Shown here piece after piece: positions 11,942 to 19,641 of a stretch of 64,000 nucleotides of DNA. Origin of the DNA: Pseudomonadota bacterium. Lineage in GTDB: Bacteria > Bdellovibrionota > Bdellovibrionia > Bdellovibrionales > Bdellovibrionaceae. Made by a program: the position numbers and the translations under genes. The stretch spans positions 1 to 64,000 of the forward strand of contig JBEGVH010000020.1 in assembly GCA_041178425.1 (NCBI GenBank), written 5' to 3'. Below the pieces are notes generated by a model that was not told where the DNA came from, made no database searches, and saw nothing but the letters and a program-made list of their open reading frames with translations. Position 1 is the stretch's first letter. The number at the start of each line of letters is the position of its first letter.

Positions 11942-14617
11942 GTGAGCTCGGAGATTTTCTCAAGCCAATGGGGTAAGTTTTCAGTTGCTGAACGTAAGGC
12001 AGCTCTCAATTCTTATGCCGGTGAGCTCGAATTAAAAGTTGTTTATCTCGACGATGAACCCCTCATCCTAGAACTCATCTCCGAAAAAATCGAGCAATTT
12101 GGGTTCACACCTTTTTGTACCCAAGACTCCCAAGCGGCCCTCGAATACATTCGGCGACATCGTTCAGCGATTGCAATGATTATCTCTGATTTTAAAATGC
12201 CGAAAACAGATGGGTTCATCTTCAGACAGCAGGTTTTAGCTTTAGCTCCAGAGATTCCCTTTACAATTCACTCCGGTTTTGTTGATCGAGAGATGGCATT
12301 GCGTGGAATGGAACTCAAAATTGCTTCATTTATTGAAAAGCCCGTTAAAGATGAAGACTTTTTTAAAAACTTTTTCAATGAATGCCAAGGTCGACTCGAA
12401 GCCATAAGAGAAGAACGGGAGTTGCTCAAAGGATTTACCGACGATGCAAGCAACTTGGTAGAACAGGCAGAGGAGCTTATTTTGCTCCTCGAAGAAAATC
12501 CCCAAGACCAAGACACCGTTTCAAAAATCTTCGGTATCATTCATACAATCAAGGGTTCGTCTGGTTTTTTTGAACCGCGAACACTTCACTCTTTTGCTCA
12601 CCGCTTCGAAGATACCCTTAAAGAAATTCAATCTGGAAAAAGAACATTAACCCCTGGATTGGTGTCTATTTGGTTAAAGTCCTGCGATACACTTAAAACC
12701 CTGATTACCGAATTTAGAAATGCCGATCATAATTTATACAATATCGAAGAGCTGACTAAGATCTTTAGCGATCAGCGCAGCACTGCGGATACACCGATCA
12801 GTCTTCAAGCCTCCCATGAATCGGGAGACCATCCTCCGGCAGACACCCAAAAACTCAACCACAAAACAAAAGGTCCCCAAGAAATTAAGGTTTCTGTAAC
12901 TCTCCTTGATGAGTTCATGCAAATTTCTGGTGAAATGACCGTGATTCGAAACATGATCAACAAAATTGTACGGACCATCGAAAAACAATATCCCGCCGAC
13001 AAAGACGTCAATCTCTTAAGCGAACTGCTTGGTGAACTTCATAAGGTGAATAGTTTGGTGCAAGCAAAAATAACTGAGATTAGAAAGGTTCCAGTTCGCT
13101 CCGTCGTTAAACCACTCAGCCGAATTATAAGGGACACAGCACAGACCCTTGCAAAAGAAGTCGAACTAAAAGTCAATGGCGATGAAATTTTGATAGACAC
13201 CTCGGTGGCCGAAGCCTTGTCGAATTCTCTCATTCACCTTGTTCGAAATTCTCTCGATCATGGAATTGAGATGCCCACAGAACGAGAGCAAAAGGGCAAA
13301 AACAAGCGTGGCGAAGTTAAAATCAGTGCCCGATTAAATAATGAAACTATTTTTATTGATATTCAAGACGATGGCAAAGGTATCAATCCGGATGCGATAC
13401 GCAATAAACTCATCAGCAATGGGACTCATACTCGCGACCAAGTCATGAAGATGTCTCTCCCTGACCTCTACCAAATGATTTTTTCAGCTGGATTTAGTAC
13501 AGCTCAAAAAATCACCGATCTTTCTGGTCGTGGCGTAGGAATGTCGATGGTCAAAGATGTGGTTGAGGCCATCGGCGGAAAAATAGTTATTGAATCTCAG
13601 ATCAATAAAGGCACTCAATTTACTTTAAATATTCCCGTACCGAAGTCGGTCCTCATCACTAACTGTCTTTTTGTAAGCGCCCAAAACATGCAGTTTGGGG
13701 TTCCACAAGATCAGATCCGCAGAATTCTCAATGTCGACGAAGCCAAGAATAGAGGTTTCATCGAATCACTTGATGGAACAGAAATTCTACGAATCGAAGA
13801 GGAACTCATTCCAATAATTTCGTTGAAGGCGGTCCTTAATGGAAAATTCCAAAGTGAATCAAATAAAATTGATGAGGGTTACCTCATTATTTTAAATGCA
13901 AAGACAAGAAACTTTTGCCTCTGGGTCGATTCTGTTCAAGATGTCGAAGACACTGTTGTAAAAACAATCACCACTGGGCAAATAAAAAACATTGGCCTGT
14001 ATCTTGGAGCGACATTCCTGGGCGATGGCGGCGTAGGTCTGATTCTTAACGTAGAAGGCTTAGCGCAAAAAGCTGGTATTTCCCTCGAGAAGCTCCAAAG
14101 TAAAAAACTTGAAGAGCATGCCGACTCCGACGCCCAAGAAAAAACCCTCTGCCCCACTATTAATGTGATTTTATGCAAGCTCCAAAGTAAAACTCTCTAC
14201 GCTATTCCTCAAGAATCTATTTTTAGACTGGAAGAATTTAAAACGGATCAGCTTCAACAGAATGGTTCGCTGATCGTAGCCCCCTATCGCGATCGAATGA
14301 TCACGTTTGTCGATATGGAGCGATTTATAACAACACCCCACAACTTCAACCCCGTGCTCTCGCCACAAAGCAGTTATCCTACGCTTGTGATTGCCCATAA
14401 AACGGGTTACATCGGCCTTATTGTTCAAAGTGTTTTAGATCTCGTAACCACTTACAGCCAGCCACAAGAGGGCCTCATCAACCAACCTGGTTGCCAAGGT
14501 TGGCTCTTAATTGGCGAAAAATCAGTGGTGTTGGTTGATGTAAAGAAAGTGATTGAACAACTCAGTCAGCCCTCAGAGAGTCAAAGCCTCGAAGCTTCTG
14601 GTTCCCTATCCGCTTGA
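11942..14617 (+). CDS. cheA: Hybrid CheA histidine kinase (REC-HPt-dimerisation-HATPase-CheW-CheW)
   Basis: N-terminal REC (YLDDE, ISDFKMP, IEKP), HPt HTIKGSSG, HLVRNSLDHGIE, DDGKGI, GFST..SGRGVGM, two CheW-like domains. GTG start after GGAGG. Confidence 0.9.
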   Translation: MSSEIFSSQWGKFSVAERKAALNSYAGELELKVVYLDDEPLILELISEKIEQFGFTPFCTQDSQAALEYIRRHRSAIAMIISDFKMPKTDGFIFRQQVLALAPEIPFTIHSGFVDREMALRGMELKIASFIEKPVKDEDFFKNFFNECQGRLEAIREERELLKGFTDDASNLVEQAEELILLLEENPQDQDTVSKIFGIIHTIKGSSGFFEPRTLHSFAHRFEDTLKEIQSGKRTLTPGLVSIWLKSCDTLKTLITEFRNADHNLYNIEELTKIFSDQRSTADTPISLQASHESGDHPPADTQKLNHKTKGPQEIKVSVTLLDEFMQISGEMTVIRNMINKIVRTIEKQYPADKDVNLLSELLGELHKVNSLVQAKITEIRKVPVRSVVKPLSRIIRDTAQTLAKEVELKVNGDEILIDTSVAEALSNSLIHLVRNSLDHGIEMPTEREQKGKNKRGEVKISARLNNETIFIDIQDDGKGINPDAIRNKLISNGTHTRDQVMKMSLPDLYQMIFSAGFSTAQKITDLSGRGVGMSMVKDVVEAIGGKIVIESQINKGTQFTLNIPVPKSVLITNCLFVSAQNMQFGVPQDQIRRILNVDEAKNRGFIESLDGTEILRIEEELIPIISLKAVLNGKFQSESNKIDEGYLIILNAKTRNFCLWVDSVQDVEDTVVKTITTGQIKNIGLYLGATFLGDGGVGLILNVEGLAQKAGISLEKLQSKKLEEHADSDAQEKTLCPTINVILCKLQSKTLYAIPQESIFRLEEFKTDQLQQNGSLIVAPYRDRMITFVDMERFITTPHNFNPVLSPQSSYPTLVIAHKTGYIGLIVQSVLDLVTTYSQPQEGLINQPGCQGWLLIGEKSVVLVDVKKVIEQLSQPSESQSLEASGSLSA

Positions 14618-14652: not shown

Positions 14653-15501
14653 TTATTTGTTGGCTGGTGGCCAACGGTAATTCTTATTTACGTTGCAAGA
14701 CTCACTGATGGCACAAAAAGAACCACTCCCATTATCCGTTTTATTTTTATTATCCAAATTACACTTCAATGTGTTCGTATTCCACTCTCCGTCGGCTGCC
14801 AGACAGGTTTCCTGAATATAGGCAATTTCCTCTACACTTCGACAGGTAAGTAGCTCATCATCTGTTGAGTCCGTGGGAGTATCTTTTTGATCAATCGATA
14901 AAATCACCGGATGCCTCGAAAAGTATGTGGCCCTGCTTAGATCCGTCGGGTCAGAGCTATTTCGGTTAGCACCCGTTTGATCAATAAGAGTTACCGTAAT
15001 TTGAGCCCTAACTAAGTTTTTTTCAGAGTTCACACCCACGTATTTCGTGACAGGAGGGTTAACGGTAAGATCTTGATAACCGGTTAATTCAATTTTAGTA
15101 ACGGTGTGCTTGCCCACTCGAGTTCCCAGATCGAGAATCATGAAGGGGGTTCTCAATCCGAAATCAGGGCGAGGCGATGAAGGAACTGGCCCAGGAGCCA
15201 AATCAAAAACCATCGTAGTGGGCACATCAATTTCAAAGTCTTTGGGCAGTGGAACCTTATTTACGACTTCAAACTCCTCATTAAGAAGTTTGCCAATTCC
15301 GCAACCATCGGCCTTTATGATGCTGCTGATTTCTTCGTGGAGATCTCGCCGCTCTTGTTTTACCGTAAGGCGAACTGATTGATCGGTGGCTGTTACTAAT
15401 AAATGCGATAAAAAATATCCGGCAATACCTAGAATCGCAACCACAATCACGGCCTCGATCAGAGTGAATCCAGATTTTCCATAATTAGGTGGTCGCATCA
15501 T
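14653..15501 (-). CDS. Type IV pilin-like protein (prepilin cleavage/methylation motif) with Cys-rich C-terminus
   Basis: KSG|FTLIEAVIVVAILGI. Start reassigned to ATG 15501 (GGAGT RBS, sigma28 promoter just upstream). Confidence 0.82.
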   Translation of the reverse strand: MMRPPNYGKSGFTLIEAVIVVAILGIAGYFLSHLLVTATDQSVRLTVKQERRDLHEEISSIIKADGCGIGKLLNEEFEVVNKVPLPKDFEIDVPTTMVFDLAPGPVPSSPRPDFGLRTPFMILDLGTRVGKHTVTKIELTGYQDLTVNPPVTKYVGVNSEKNLVRAQITVTLIDQTGANRNSSDPTDLSRATYFSRHPVILSIDQKDTPTDSTDDELLTCRSVEEIAYIQETCLAADGEWNTNTLKCNLDNKNKTDNGSGSFCAISESCNVNKNYRWPPANK

Positions 15502-15527
15502 AGTTTTTGAACTCCGGTTACTAACCT

Positions 15528-15554
15528 TTATCGGACATCCATTCTCTAGCTTGA
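15528..15554 (-). promoter_or_regulatory. Sigma28/FliA-type promoter of the pilin-like gene
   Basis: TCAA-N15-TCCGATAA on the minus strand. Confidence 0.7.
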
Positions 15555-15708
15555 GCCGGGTGTAAAAATAAATGTGACTCTGAACGAAACGTTTCATGTT
15601 AAGACCATTTCCTCTGGCAATCCTAAACTGAAATATTGTTTTAACTGGATACGCTCAACAAATTCAGCACGGATTTATTCTGCAGCAATGCAAATAATGT
15701 GTTAACCT

Positions 15709-16476
15709 ATGACAATGGGGCTGAATGTTCTACGATTCCAATCGGGAAGTGCTTTTACTGGCGCTATTATCTTCGCTGCACTCGCGGGGGTGATTGGCTT
15801 TGTGCTCTTCTCGGGCATTGCTCAAACAATTAAAATCGACACTCTTCATGATATGAAATCCTACCAAGGCGATTTGTACGGCGAGATTCTCTTTGACGTT
15901 AGCACCGCGAACTGTGGTGTGACCACGCTTCGCGATGGAGCCCAACCATCTTTCGTTAAGGTTACAGAACCAACATCGGTTGGCATCATCAGCAACGAAT
16001 CTAGAAAAAATGATGGAATTGAATCGAATCTTTTATCAATTTACCAGGGTTCTATTTTCAAAAATTTTCAAGTAAAAGCAATTTTCTTTATGGCTTACGA
16101 CGGAAGTGAATCGCATCTCCAAGGGTATTTAATCCAAAATAACTGCGCCAAAAAGTCTTACTGCCCGATAAACTCTACCAAAACGCATTACCTTGCCCAG
16201 ATTGGGGTTGTCTTTGATTCCCCCAAACACGGCACCGTTGATACAATTTTGAAATATCCGGTGATTATTGATGTGAATGATGAGGGCGCCGTGACCAAAT
16301 GTGTGTCTGCAAAACAAAATTCCAAAGAATTTTGTCTTGCCTCGGACGGCGAATGGAAAGTCGATGACTTCAAGTGTTCGTTTAAAAAACTGAATCCAAC
16401 AGATGGTGGTAGTGGCGGTTTTTGTGCATTGAGCGAATCCTGCAATGTAAACAAAAATTACCGTTGGCCCATCTAA
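15709..16476 (+). CDS. Pilin-like paralogue lacking Glu5 (PilX/GspK-type N-terminus)
   Basis: QSG|SAFTGAIIFAALAGVIG hydrophobic N-terminus. Aligns by eye along its length to 14653-15501 and shares the C-terminal FCAxSESCNVNKNYRWP. Confidence 0.7.
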   Translation: MTMGLNVLRFQSGSAFTGAIIFAALAGVIGFVLFSGIAQTIKIDTLHDMKSYQGDLYGEILFDVSTANCGVTTLRDGAQPSFVKVTEPTSVGIISNESRKNDGIESNLLSIYQGSIFKNFQVKAIFFMAYDGSESHLQGYLIQNNCAKKSYCPINSTKTHYLAQIGVVFDSPKHGTVDTILKYPVIIDVNDEGAVTKCVSAKQNSKEFCLASDGEWKVDDFKCSFKKLNPTDGGSGGFCALSESCNVNKNYRWPI

Positions 16477-16513
16477 GAATATTTTGACGGAACGTAATTC
16501 GGAGGAACGTAAA

Positions 16514-18733
16514 ATGAGATTTTTATTGTTAATCACGTTCATAGCTGTAGGTTTTGGGAATTATTCCTTGGCGGCAACTGACGGTGCCGAAAAAAATGAT
16601 CCAGAAAATAATGCGCGCCCACTTCAATGTCTTCGACTTGGCGATAATGGCAAAACTCAAACTCTCAGCTGCACCGATTTTGATATGGCACTCAAAGACA
16701 CTTGGGCCAAGGGAACAGCTATCACTGGCGCCTGTCTTTATAATAATGAACTTGGTGGCAAAATGCAGAGAGGAAACCTTGTTGTTACCAAAATTGATAA
16801 GGTTACAAAAAAACGGACCATTGAATTTAAAAAAGCTGTCGATTGTGATGGTGGATGGTCAAAGGTAAACGTCTTTACCGATAGTGTTAACTTTTTAGGG
16901 CCCAGCCTAGCCTCAGCCTACGAAGCCAACAAAAAAGACAAAAACGATGCTAGTGAATTCAATGCCAAGCACAGCGATGATTTCGATCCTATAAAGCAAA
17001 CAATCTCGACATGTTTTTTGTTGAGCACCAATGGGGGCGCAGTTTCCAGTGGTATTACTTGTAATGCCACCGATGGAGCAACCAATTACTGCCCTCCTGA
17101 ACGAAAGGCAATTACGAAAGCAAACGGCTTCTCTGCCGCCGCTGAAAAAAAATGGAAAGGCAAATGGTGGATTATTTATCGATCGAAAAACTTCAAAAAT
17201 GCATCCATCTGTAAGGGAGGCGTTGAAGTGATTGATTTGAGTAAATCCTCTGAAGATCTTCTCGACTCAGATGATGCCATTATCAATACGGTGACGGTCA
17301 CCAAAAGTGGAACCGTGCATTTACCCTCGTCACCTGTGGCGGCTTCCAACACAAAACTCACAAAGAATGAAGATACAAAAAGTGTAAAAGTCGACGAAAT
17401 TTGTACCCAAGGCGCCGATTGTACTCCACGAGTGGTCTCGTGTAAGACCAATGGAAAATGGAGAAGTTGTTTAAATCAGTGCGCCAACGCTAGCACTGGA
17501 AAATCATCCTCTTGCCATGATGTTGGTGTTTCACAATGGAACTGGAGCAACTCAGATTACGGCCCAGGGCAAACGGGTTATTCTGCTTTCGGACTGGGTA
17601 TTAATCACTGTTTTAGAACTAGCGAAACCAAAGATGTGCCCCCATTTAAGGGCAGAAGTAGCACTAGTCCGAGAAGCGACAAAGGCAAGTGGTATATCGT
17701 GGATGCCTATGACCAAAACTTTCTCACCAATGTCTGGCAAAATCCAAAAGGCACCATGAATCGAGTGACGGCCAGCAACTGCGAGGAAGTGAAAGTGACT
17801 GGTTCAGCGGCCTTTGAAGGTAGCCAACAAGAAACCATTCTTACCAGTAGTAGCCCCACAAACACCACTCTTGGAAAATCCATTGGTTCTACAGCCACAG
17901 ACAGTTCAATCCTTGTTAAGGTATCGAAGGGAATCATGATTGCCGGTGGCACCGATGCCAATGAGGATGGCACAACTGACGATGCAAACGCCGAAGTGCT
18001 TGGAATTGGATACACTGCTGATGGTCTGGGCTCATTAGAATCTGGGGGCCTCGACAAACTCTCCAAAAGAAAAGTGGCCGGTTCGATCGATGGCCAATTA
18101 AAATTGGCCGTGAACGGCGGTGCCATCATCAATGGAAATTTAGAAATGCCCGACACGTTGGCCTCCGGAAAAATCCAGGCCGGTAAATTAGGAATCGATG
18201 GCTACAATAGTTCCGTCGCGGCCAGCACAGGTGCACTTTCCCTCTCGGGGCCGACAGGAGTTTCGGTCAATGCCGGATCTGGTTCACTGTCCGTAGCAGG
18301 GAAAATTTCAGCATCAAGCACTATTACGAGTAACTCCGATGCGCGCTTAAAGAAAAACGTCATTCCGATCCGTGCTGCTCTCGAAAAAGTACTCAACCTT
18401 CGAGGGGTCACATACCACTATCGCACAGAACAATACCCTGAACTCAACTTTGGCGAAGAACGGCAACTAGGCTTCATTGCTCAAGAGGTTAAAAAACAAG
18501 TCCCCGAAGTCGTCTCGGTTGATGAACGTGGATTCCTCCGTTTGGCTTATGCGAACCTCACGGCTCTTTTGGTGGAAGCAGTAAAGGAAATCAATACTAA
18601 ACTTGAGGTGTTTATTGTGAGTCAGAATGAACAACAAACGACAACCGAGTTGCGCCTTCTAAAACTAGAGCAGGAAAACCAACAGATGCGCTCACAGCTA
18701 GACTCTATCCTTAAGCAATGCAAAGATCGTTGA
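16514..18733 (+). CDS. Secreted Cys-rich fibre/adhesin with C-terminal Peptidase_S74 intramolecular chaperone (MAT-like)
   Basis: GGAGG then ATG 16514; Sec signal (YSLA|A); Gly-rich beta segment; SDARLKKNV..LEKVLNLRGVTYHY..GFIAQEV..YANLTALLVEAVKE; terminal coiled coil. Confidence 0.85.
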   Translation: MRFLLLITFIAVGFGNYSLAATDGAEKNDPENNARPLQCLRLGDNGKTQTLSCTDFDMALKDTWAKGTAITGACLYNNELGGKMQRGNLVVTKIDKVTKKRTIEFKKAVDCDGGWSKVNVFTDSVNFLGPSLASAYEANKKDKNDASEFNAKHSDDFDPIKQTISTCFLLSTNGGAVSSGITCNATDGATNYCPPERKAITKANGFSAAAEKKWKGKWWIIYRSKNFKNASICKGGVEVIDLSKSSEDLLDSDDAIINTVTVTKSGTVHLPSSPVAASNTKLTKNEDTKSVKVDEICTQGADCTPRVVSCKTNGKWRSCLNQCANASTGKSSSCHDVGVSQWNWSNSDYGPGQTGYSAFGLGINHCFRTSETKDVPPFKGRSSTSPRSDKGKWYIVDAYDQNFLTNVWQNPKGTMNRVTASNCEEVKVTGSAAFEGSQQETILTSSSPTNTTLGKSIGSTATDSSILVKVSKGIMIAGGTDANEDGTTDDANAEVLGIGYTADGLGSLESGGLDKLSKRKVAGSIDGQLKLAVNGGAIINGNLEMPDTLASGKIQAGKLGIDGYNSSVAASTGALSLSGPTGVSVNAGSGSLSVAGKISASSTITSNSDARLKKNVIPIRAALEKVLNLRGVTYHYRTEQYPELNFGEERQLGFIAQEVKKQVPEVVSVDERGFLRLAYANLTALLVEAVKEINTKLEVFIVSQNEQQTTTELRLLKLEQENQQMRSQLDSILKQCKDR

Positions 18734-18753
18734 AAGCAGGAGAGCCACTCACT

Positions 18754-19221
18754 ATGAGCATAATTTCAACAAAAACTTTACCACTTTTGATTTTCAACTT
18801 AGTTTTGATTTTATTTTGGAAATTTGAGGCCCACTCGGCTCCCTCGACCTCCTCCGCCCCCTCTACCTGTACTTCCTATTCCTATGATTGCTCTTATTGC
18901 GCGAGAACAGAGTGCTATTGCACCGAAACGGCCGTGGAAGACCCTGACTATAAGAATCGAACCATTGATACGATTGAATTTAAATGGTCTCACGATGACA
19001 CCAACAAGAATAACGATGAATGCAAGGCCGACAATGGCACTTGTAAATGCAATAAGGGAGTCACCAGTTACTACAACAATATTTTACCGGCGACACAAGC
19101 CGCCTGCGTATGGCGGGATCCCAAGTCCTTAACGGCCGTGATCACATGCTCCTGGCAAGATGGTATTTGTGCCACAAAATGCACAAAAATGGTTCAGCAA
19201 ACTTGTACTGGATGCAGATAA
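18754..19221 (+). CDS. Small secreted Cys-rich protein (14 Cys)
   Basis: AGGAG RBS, hydrophobic signal ending AHS|A, 14 Cys in the mature part; directly follows the fibre gene. Confidence 0.7.
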   Translation: MSIISTKTLPLLIFNLVLILFWKFEAHSAPSTSSAPSTCTSYSYDCSYCARTECYCTETAVEDPDYKNRTIDTIEFKWSHDDTNKNNDECKADNGTCKCNKGVTSYYNNILPATQAACVWRDPKSLTAVITCSWQDGICATKCTKMVQQTCTGCR

Positions 19222-19255: not shown

Positions 19256-19265
19256 CTACAAGTCG

Positions 19266-19635
19266 AGGGTTTTGCTGTAAGCCGGATTCTGTCTTCAAAG
19301 TCGTCCTTGTACACGACTGAGGAGACTGTCATTCCTCTGGGAGTTCTCTCACGAAAACCCTCAAGCGATCTGACCCGGAGGCACGTGCGGGTCGCACTTA
19401 TCGCCTCCCTATTTGATCTTGCTCCACACAGAGTTTAGCTATTTTCACTCCAGCAGCTCCCCTAAGAGCTCCCGTTCCCGCTCTCAGGCTCAATGCCCTG
19501 GACATTTTCTCTGTTCCACTGTTCCTCATCTTGCGATGGAGGGGTATTACCCCCTGTGTCACCCTACGGAGTCCAGACTTTCCTCAAAGAAAACAGATGG
19601 TTAAACCCACTCTCCTTGCGACAATCCACAAAACC
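19266..19635 (-). ncRNA. rnpB: RNase P RNA (bacterial)
   Basis: Minus strand carries GAGGAAAGTCTGGACTC and 3' ACAGAATCCGGCTTAC; P1 helix GGTTTTGT/GCAAAACC; flanked by a promoter and a terminator. Ends approximate. Confidence 0.95.
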
Positions 19636-19641
19636 GACAGC

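What the first reader, a model, noticed from the sequence alone, without database searches (positions are those of the whole stretch)
14653..19221. Candidate pilus-displayed phage-fibre adhesin system: two pilin-like paralogues, a secreted S74 fibre and a 14-Cys protein
Seen: a compact four-gene locus with a Glu5 pilin-like gene, a divergent non-Glu5 paralogue, a Sec-exported Cys-rich protein ending in an S74 auto-cleaving trimerisation chaperone, and a small 14-Cys secreted protein. No phage genes are nearby. Established: S74 domains fold trimeric phage tail fibres, and Bdellovibrio uses S74-bearing mosaic adhesive trimer (MAT) fibres in prey recognition; PilX/GspK-type pilins without Glu5 sit at pilus tips. 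Inference: the minor pilins act as adaptors that mount a trimeric fibre and the Cys-rich accessory protein on a type IV pilus or T2SS pseudopilus. I am not aware of this split pilin-plus-S74 arrangement being described.
Basis: partly seen in the sequence, partly recalled or inferred. Interest (0 to 1): 0.82.

Follow-up and report, generated by a model that had tools for sequence, protein, structure and literature searches.

The report
Pilin-docked fibre of predatory bacteria
In Bdellovibrio-like bacteria a pilus-subunit gene and a gene for a secreted cysteine-rich protein always sit side by side; the short tail of the subunit is predicted to clip onto that protein, which here ends in a phage-style self-trimming fibre domain, so the pair likely puts a swappable sticky tip on a pilus.

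Summary
The four genes are real and as described; pilin A is on the opposite strand. The conserved unit is not 'two pilins + S74 fibre + 14-Cys protein' but a pair: one large type IV pilin with a ~20-residue C-terminal tail, plus a Sec-exported protein (F) built of unnamed cysteine modules. All 11 F-family loci I could read (two families plus one metagenome contig) have such a pilin next to F; these pilins form one clade; fused pilin+module genes exist in this genome and two other families. A complex model docks pilin B's tail on F's first module (score 0.72, best control 0.02). S74 is optional (7 of 63 family representatives). The second pilin is unique to this locus; the 14-Cys protein has no homologue found. 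F lacks the MAT N-terminal domain, so it is not a MAT. Pilin-S74 fusions were already listed in print; this tail-docked pair was not found in my searches. B. bacteriovorus HD100 has an S74-less version (likely Bd2563/Bd2564), so it is directly testable. Display on a pilus, which filament, and any prey ligand remain inferred.

The parts
14653..15501 (-). Pilin A: Glu5 type IV prepilin, large globular head, C-terminal Cys-loop tail (C263-x5-C269-NVNKNYRW, about nt 14724-14671)
   Evidence: Pfam PF07963 25.5 bits; model pLDDT 75.7 with helix 6-55 and four long strands; tail profile hit; clade of F-linked pilins, support 0.99
15709..16476 (+). Pilin B: paralogue of A without Glu5 (G|SAFTG); same tail
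   Evidence: 27% identity to A, E 2e-28; 3' ends 71% identical in DNA over 141 nt
16414..16473 (+). Docking tail of B (residues 236-255), predicted interface with F
   Evidence: the only part of B in the confident interface of the complex model
16514..18733 (+). Protein F: signal peptide, cysteine modules, short fibre stalk, S74 chaperone
16619..16858 (+). F module 1 (about residues 36-115; four Cys), predicted receiver of the pilin tail
   Evidence: conserved in the family; pLDDT about 82-95; interface residues all fall here
17003..17233 (+). F module 2 (about residues 164-240; four Cys, G-x-W-W motif)
   Evidence: invariant Cys/Gly in 62 sequences; pLDDT about 81-95
17402..17782 (+). F variable third cysteine region (residues 297-423)
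   Evidence: poorly conserved and poorly modelled
17810..18334 (+). Gly/Ser-rich fibre stalk of about 175 residues
   Evidence: PHROGs tail-fibre profiles extend over it, e.g. phrog_25788 E 3.8e-24 (the score includes the S74 part); no MAT capping-loop motif
18335..18733 (+). S74 intramolecular chaperone (S-D-A-R-L-K) and C-terminal coiled coil
   Evidence: PF13884 60.9 bits; SDxxxK motif as defined in PMC10769870
18754..19221 (+). Small secreted 14-Cys protein; accessory, role open
   Evidence: no intact homologue in 182 genomes, no Pfam/PHROGs/Atlas hit; unrelated small 8-Cys secreted ORFs hold the same position in three other S74 loci of one genus

Best explanation
This locus is a split, modular pilin system: pilins A and B end in a conserved 20-residue tail that is predicted to dock on the first cysteine module of the secreted protein F, and they likely carry F, predicted to trimerise and trim itself through its S74 domain, to the tip of a type IV pilus where it would act as an exchangeable adhesin. 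Steps: (1) shown: gene content, conserved adjacency, one pilin clade, fused equivalents; (2) predicted: B residues 236-255 bind F module 1, with the N-Y-R-W end of the tail lying against F's strand around Cys74 (contact pattern suggests strand addition); A is assumed to bind likewise because its tail is nearly identical; (3) from established family knowledge: PilD cleaves A after Gly; S74 folds a trimer and is released at Ser608; (4) inferred: F meets the pilin tails in the periplasm after Sec export and disulfide formation, up to three tails hold one F trimer, Glu5-less B sits first at the tip, the complex leaves through a secretin, most likely that of the type IVa pilus; the outer modules, stalk end or the 14-Cys protein contact prey or surfaces.
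For: Adjacency: 11 of 11 loci of signal-peptide-type F relatives that I could read have a related pilin next to F, on the same strand; ten were found with F as query, one with pilin A. In 182 genomes of the family, F core and strong A/B-type heads occur in the same 6 genomes (these six built the profiles, no further genome joined). The 11 linked pilins in the tree form one clade among 56 heads, support 0.99. A tail profile found 9 of 655 locus ORFs, all F-linked, one of them outside the training set. Fusions of a pilin head to F-type modules: this genome, C20:65482 (E 1e-4 among 8652 ORFs, 0 of 488 scored shuffles as high) and G274, G365, G503, G508 in two other families. Complex model of B 38-255 with F 30-253: score 0.72, best of 3 controls 0.02; that mark was reached by 116 of 157 solved complexes and 2 of 215 mismatched pairs (roughly applicable, own alignments); runs share at least 43% of contacts, partner pLDDT at least 42; the confident interface is exactly the tail, which I had singled out beforehand. 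No solved look-alike of F was found, so recall is less likely. The genome has PilD-like peptidases, four secretins, PilB/GspE/PilT ATPases and PilM. Precedent for pilin plus separately secreted tip partner: CofB-CofJ (PMC6048534, abstract), PilY1, TcpF (PMC10191384, passages).
Against: No experiment shows surface display, pilus incorporation or adhesion. The complex is a model; B's fold was uncertain in one run (pLDDT 43) and only B, not A, and only monomeric F modules 1-2 were tested. Fold searches did not match A's head to a solved pilin (dominated by the helix). B's leader is atypical (Ser+1, Gly+5), so processing is unproven. The locus holds no assembly genes, and the genome has type IVa, T2SS and two Tad systems, so the filament is not identified. 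The tail profile missed the visibly similar tails of G611 and G617, and G646's tail lacks the Cys pair. The loci are kin: five genera in two families plus one contig. The family is rare (6 of 182; 3 split of 401 phylum genomes), so it is accessory.
Confidence: 0.6

Rival explanations
1. Same tail-module binding, but the pilin is a secretion adaptor: it recruits F to a T2SS pseudopilus or retractile pilus that pushes F out and releases it (TcpB-TcpF style) rather than holding it as a fixed tip.
For: F has its own signal peptide; the genome has a T2SS; type 4 filaments are described as exporting tip-located effectors (PMC10191384 passages; PMC10120004 and PMC9565799 listings).
Against: Covalent pilin+module fusions in three families cannot release the module, which favours retention; the T2SS cluster has its own G-K pseudopilins.
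Confidence: 0.17
2. The pilin-like proteins are only inner-membrane anchors: they hold F in the periplasm or at the invasive pole and are never built into a filament.
For: B and 3 of the other 9 readable linked pilins lack Glu5; no assembly genes at the locus; head not matched to a solved pilin.
Against: A and 6 others keep G|F-x-L-x-E; an S74 phage-type fibre is described as a surface-exposed structure (PMC10769870) and makes little sense on the inner membrane.
Confidence: 0.11
3. The pair caps a Tad pilus, like the exchangeable Tip complexes of Myxococcus.
For: Two Tad-type secretin/ATPase sets in the genome; PilD also processes Tad pilin in B. bacteriovorus (10.64898/2026.07.08.737194 passages); swappable Tad tips are known (PMC12075869 passages).
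Against: A has the short leader and G|FTLIE start matched by PF07963, not a TadE/F/G profile; no tad gene beside any of the 11 loci.
Confidence: 0.07
4. No physical link: the genes travel together as a patchy cassette of surface proteins and work separately.
For: Patchy distribution; neighbours differ at each locus; neighbouring genes sometimes pass the complex test by chance.
Against: Fusions, clade-restricted tail, and a model interface confined to that tail.
Confidence: 0.05

Closest known systems
CofB-CofJ (ETEC CFA/III) and TcpB-TcpF (V. cholerae TCP)
   Same: A minor pilin acts as adaptor for a separately secreted protein encoded beside it, joined by a short peptide (PMC6048534 abstract; PMC8179133 passages).
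   Different: Polarity is reversed: there the secreted protein's N-terminal peptide binds a domain of the pilin; here the pilin's C-terminal tail is predicted to bind a domain of the secreted protein. No sequence or fold match (CofB appears only at E 0.4); not in a type IVb operon; partner can carry S74.
Modular type IV pilins, including architecture IPR012902-IPR030392 (pilin + S74; Raynaud et al. 2021, PMC8179133)
   Same: Functional module carried on a pilin; this genome has three intact pilin-S74 fusions and one frameshifted, and five other genomes among 29 other loci have them.
   Different: Here the module is a separate Sec-exported chain with its own unnamed domain family; that survey lists fusions only.
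Bdellovibrio MAT fibres, S74 group (Caulton et al. 2024, PMC10769870)
   Same: Signal peptide, C-terminal S74 with SDxxxK, same bacterial group; that paper leaves the surface anchor and any link to type IV pili open.
   Different: F lacks the conserved MAT N-terminal domain and the capping-loop motif, has a stalk of only ~175 residues, and has cysteine modules instead.
PilC/PilY1 on the PilHIJK tip complex
   Same: Non-pilin, signal-peptide-bearing modular protein proposed to cap minor pilins (PMC10191384, PMC8179133 passages).
   Different: No PilY1 beta-propeller hit in F; partner pilin is a single large pilin, not the four-member set.
Myxococcus Kil Tad 'Tip' complexes (PMC12075869)
   Same: Predator with several exchangeable pilus-tip sets carrying variable domains.
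   Different: Those are heterotrimers of Tad minor pilins; no separate docked partner or S74 in the passages read.

Membership tests
Type IV prepilin (pilin A) | Short basic leader, Gly-1, Phe+1, Glu+5, hydrophobic helix | tested here: met
   PF07963 25.5 bits over cut-off; helix 6-55 in model
Type IV prepilin (pilin A) | Head of antiparallel beta-sheet packed on helix 1, matching solved pilins | tested here: inconclusive
   model shows helix plus four long strands; fold searches gave only helix matches
Type IV prepilin (pilin B) | Class III signal peptide cleaved by PilD | tested here: inconclusive
   Arg-5, Gly-1 and hydrophobic run present, but Ser+1/Gly+5 and no Pfam hit; homologous to A along its length
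PilX/GspK-type tip pilin (pilin B) | No Glu5 | tested here: met
   Gly at +5
PilX/GspK-type tip pilin (pilin B) | Homology to PilX/GspK and membership of an I-J-K set | tested here: not met
   no PilX/GspK Pfam hit at E up to 1; B groups with A and other F-linked pilins
Peptidase S74 fibre (F) | C-terminal S74 domain with SDxxxK and coiled coil | tested here: met
Peptidase S74 fibre (F) | Trimerisation and self-cleavage | not testable with these tools
   follows from family knowledge (PMC10769870 passages); not modelled as a trimer
MAT fibre | Conserved ~130-residue beta-rich domain after the signal peptide | tested here: not met
   profile from 5 MAT-type N-termini finds 11 proteins in this genome at E < 1e-6, not F at E up to 5
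MAT fibre | Capping-loop motif V-G-G/N-x-x-x-P-x-x-x-L | tested here: not met
   pattern absent from F, present in a MAT-type protein of the genome
CofB-CofJ / TcpB-TcpF type | Pilin binds a co-encoded secreted protein | tested here: inconclusive
   supported by model, not shown
CofB-CofJ / TcpB-TcpF type | Type IVb operon with its own assembly genes; CofB-like beta-repeat and lectin domains | tested here: not met
   no assembly genes at any of the 11 loci; A and B end ~30 residues after the head
PilY1/PilC | C-terminal beta-propeller (PF05567) | tested here: not met
   F has no such hit and ends in S74

The most novel reading that the evidence does not exclude
Bdellovibrionota have a third way to arm the cell surface besides MATs and fused pilins: a clip-on cartridge. 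A 20-residue cysteine-loop tail on a pilin plugs into a new domain family; swapping what follows that domain changes the pilus tip. In this genome up to three A/B tails hold one S74-folded trimer, and the 14-Cys protein caps the end exposed by S74 cleavage, as gp38 caps phage long tail fibres, giving a three-tier phage-like fibre on a retractile pilus for prey selection.
Probability: 0.2. Interest if true: 0.87.

Novelty: new variant of a known kind. Interest (0 to 1): 0.7.

Why it matters
How Bdellovibrio couples its adhesins to pili is open (PMC10769870 discussion; 10.64898/2026.07.08.737194 discussion). This gives a concrete, small, mutable interface (pilin tail against module 1) between a pilin and an unnamed secreted domain family, and the model strain HD100 carries the pair as two hypothetical genes (CAE80359.1, CAE80360.1; likely Bd2563/Bd2564) that are lower in host-independent growth. 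It also shows the same modules in split and fused form across three to four families, and a docking polarity opposite to CofB-CofJ. It does not solve how MATs are anchored.

Tried and rejected
Single-sequence searches of the 5.8-billion set with A and with F 20-470 returned only themselves; the fusion-head profile returned 4 near-self hits. Pairwise BLAST of F against the fused pilin C20:65482 was not significant (E 0.35); only module profiles detect it. Profile-profile comparison of A/B with the S74-fused heads matched only the N-terminal helix (probability 17%), and modules 1 and 2 matched each other weakly (17%), so their homology is by motif, not firmly shown. Fold searches for F: nothing at E <= 0.001 in PDB or viral models, best Z 3.6; for A only helix matches; this shows neither a new nor a known fold. 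ESM Atlas gave nothing usable for F core or the 14-Cys protein. The 14-Cys protein: two weak genome hits contain stop codons; no similarity to one 8-Cys protein of the other S74 loci (463 of 500 shuffles scored as high). PilY1 was not found in the genome, but no control genome rang either, so absence is not shown. Promoter scan was at chance level (5 found, 7.0 expected); the one strong terminator belongs to the minus strand below RNase P RNA. A genome-contig scan with P0044 found nothing. Prophage origin rejected: host genes on both sides, GC like the window. Tn-seq supplements of PMC6561027 do not list bd2562-bd2565. No reads were laid, so expression of this locus is untested.
Full report
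OBSERVATION. The four ORFs, the Glu5 leader of A, the Glu5-less B, the S74 domain with its S-D codon at 18335 and the 14 cysteines are all in the sequence. A lies on the minus strand, back to back with B-F-14Cys. Flanks are a CheA-type kinase and RNase P RNA; no phage genes were seen among ORFs at 9-25 kb.

WHAT IS CONSERVED. A and F had no close relatives by single-sequence search. Whole-genome searches found them. With A as query, G015 gave a pilin followed by an F-like gene (A match E 9e-18, F match E 7e-5). With F as query, G004, G068, G087 and G113 gave F-like genes, each beside a related pilin (a fifth hit, G067, contained a stop and was dropped). Profiles from these six found no further genome among 182 of the family: F core 6 of 182; pilin heads 19 of 182, with strong full-length matches only in the same six and weak ones elsewhere. 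A scan of 1.84 billion representatives gave 63 F-core proteins: 57 of 63 start with a signal-peptide-like stretch, none with a pilin leader, 22 of the 56 without S74 have exactly 12 Cys, none has a Pfam domain other than S74 above cut-off, and 7 of 63 have S74 (plus F). Wider searches added G381 (7 of 401 phylum genomes matched), G611, G617, G646 (4 of 238, one genus) and one metagenome contig. In all, 11 of 11 readable loci have the pilin next to F on the same strand (10 upstream, 1 downstream); 5 of 11 have S74; only this one shows two pilins (G004 and G087 are cut by contig ends). These are five genera in two families plus one contig, so they are not 11 independent events. The 11 linked pilin heads in a tree of 56 form one clade, support 0.99 (G004's partial pilin was not in it, A and B both were). 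They share a C-terminal tail, G-x-(F/Y/L)-C-x5-C-x-V-x3-(Y/F); a tail profile hit 9 of 655 locus ORFs, all F-linked, but missed the similar tails of G611 and G617, and G646 keeps the spacing without the cysteines.

FUSED FORMS. The other four phylum hits are pilin heads fused to F-type modules (G274, two tandem genes; G365, G508; G503 cut at its start). This genome has one too, 1.5 kb past the window end (C20:65482; module profile E 1e-4 among 8652 ORFs, 0 of 488 scored shuffles as high). It also has three intact pilin-S74 fusions and a frameshifted one, and five other genomes among the 29 other loci returned had such fusions. Large pilins with a C..GG.(W/Y/F)..C head end and varied appendages are common in the family (108 of 182 genomes at E <= 1e-6, many matches covering only the N-terminal helix). 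Their homology to A/B beyond that motif is weak.

MODELS. F 22-432 folds with mean pLDDT 72; modules 1 and 2 are confident, the rest is not; no known fold matched. A gives a long first helix and a four-strand sheet, pLDDT 76, without a confirming fold match. The complex of B 38-255 with F 30-253 scored 0.72 against a best control of 0.02; the mark was reached by 116 of 157 solved complexes and 2 of 215 mismatched pairs, counts that hold only roughly for my alignments; runs agree in at least 43% of contacts and B's pLDDT is at least 42. The confident interface is B 236-255 against F module 1 only (F residues about 31-36, 56-61, 73-85, 103-120). The model supports binding; it does not show it.

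MECHANISM. Shown: the pair, the tail, the fusions. Predicted: tail-module 1 docking. From family knowledge: PilD processing of A; S74 trimerisation and release at Ser608 (PMC10769870, passages). Inferred: F is captured in the periplasm and carried out at a filament tip, since tip complexes start with a subunit lacking Glu5 and large modular pilins are thought to fit only at the tip (PMC10191384, PMC8179133, passages). The genome has type IVa, T2SS and Tad parts (assignment of clusters from ORF context and my recall of gene order); the leader type and the T2SS having its own pseudopilins favour type IVa. An S74 trimer offers three docking sites, which would suit two or three tail-bearing pilins, but three S74 loci have a single pilin gene, so two paralogues are not required. 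The 14-Cys gene has no homologue found; an unrelated small secreted 8-Cys gene follows F-S74 directly in G381, G611 and G617, and none was seen after F in the six S74-less loci, which hints at an S74-linked accessory, perhaps a cap like phage S16 gp38 on gp37 (PMC9608196, passages); this rests on two lineages.

MODEL ORGANISM. Two of the proteins are on record as B. bacteriovorus HD100 hypothetical proteins CAE80359.1 (Q6MK50) and CAE80360.1; the next UniProt number, Q6MK48, is the MAT bd2565 (PMC10769870 supplement), so they are likely Bd2563 and Bd2564 (inferred). Both are lower in host-independent growth (0.34/0.19 and 0.64/0.55) and flat on prey entry (PMC2797640 supplement rows); hundreds of genes share this pattern, so it is weak support. 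That F homologue has no S74.

COMPARISON AND NOVELTY. It works like CofB-CofJ or PilY1 on minor pilins, with reversed docking polarity; it is not a member of either, and F is not a MAT. Pilin-S74 fusion is listed in PMC8179133 (passages). I found no paper on this pair in seven searches of the open library (Bd2563/Bd2564 had no main-text hit); subscription papers, one unreadable supplement of PMC10769870 and bioRxiv supplements were not seen. Papers seen: passages of PMC10769870 (plus supplement part 4 and a term search), PMC8179133, PMC10191384, PMC12075869, PMC9608196, 10.64898/2026.07.08.737194; abstract of PMC6048534; supplement searches of PMC2797640 and PMC6561027; listings only of PMC9565799 and PMC10120004. 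Earlier scan notes report pilin-S74 fusions often and split pilin-plus-fibre operons in another phylum, none for this family.

VERDICT. Real, conserved, with a specific predicted interface and a testable counterpart in a model predator; a new variant of the pilin-plus-tip-effector theme. Interest 0.70; confidence in tail docking about 0.8, in the full pilus-tip adhesin reading 0.6.

Noticed in passing
G000:C20:65482-67032 (L013), just beyond the window: Glu5 pilin fused to cysteine modules of the F type (516 aa, 18-19 Cys): the fused counterpart of the window's pair.
   Followed up: yes
G000:C9:255569-261789 and 265399-266970 (L001); C26:35738-38239 (L002): Tandem of three pilin-fibre-S74 fusion genes, the first broken by a frameshift in a C-run region near its start, plus a fourth fusion elsewhere and a related pilin with a non-S74 Cys-rich end.
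   Followed up: partly
G000:C20:85614-90826 (L005): Phage-like gp38-type 'host specificity' gene (phrog_2056, E 2.4e-11) in a small operon converging on a 242-aa S74 mini-fibre with a twin-arginine-like leader and a MAT-type gene; no prophage seen around it.
   Followed up: partly
G000:C26:82324-84318: 664-aa ORF joining a signal-peptidase-II-like membrane region to a C-terminal S74-like segment (labels from sequence appearance; S74 similarity E 3e-10).
   Followed up: no
G000:C14:23181-26697 and C29:78349-82107: Two paralogous triplets of large Cys-rich pilins, each with Glu5-less members; similar triplets in other genomes (L040-L043, L074, L077, L080). Candidate type IVa tip sets in a genome where PilY1 was not found.
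   Followed up: no
L023 9734-13225 (-): A MAT-type S74 fibre gene converges on the pilin-F pair in this locus.
   Followed up: partly
L099 8074-8457, L106 and L108 2953-3309: Small secreted 8-Cys proteins with Pro-rich ends directly after F-S74 genes; no PHROGs hit.
   Followed up: partly
window 11942-14617 (+): Orphan hybrid kinase: receiver domain N-terminal to Hpt-dimer-HATPase-two CheW domains, converging on pilin A.
   Followed up: no
window 19262-19637 (-): RNase P RNA class A with a terminator at 19257-19232.
   Followed up: yes
G000 genome-wide: At least 11 proteins with a MAT-type N-terminal domain, up to 4195 aa.
   Followed up: no
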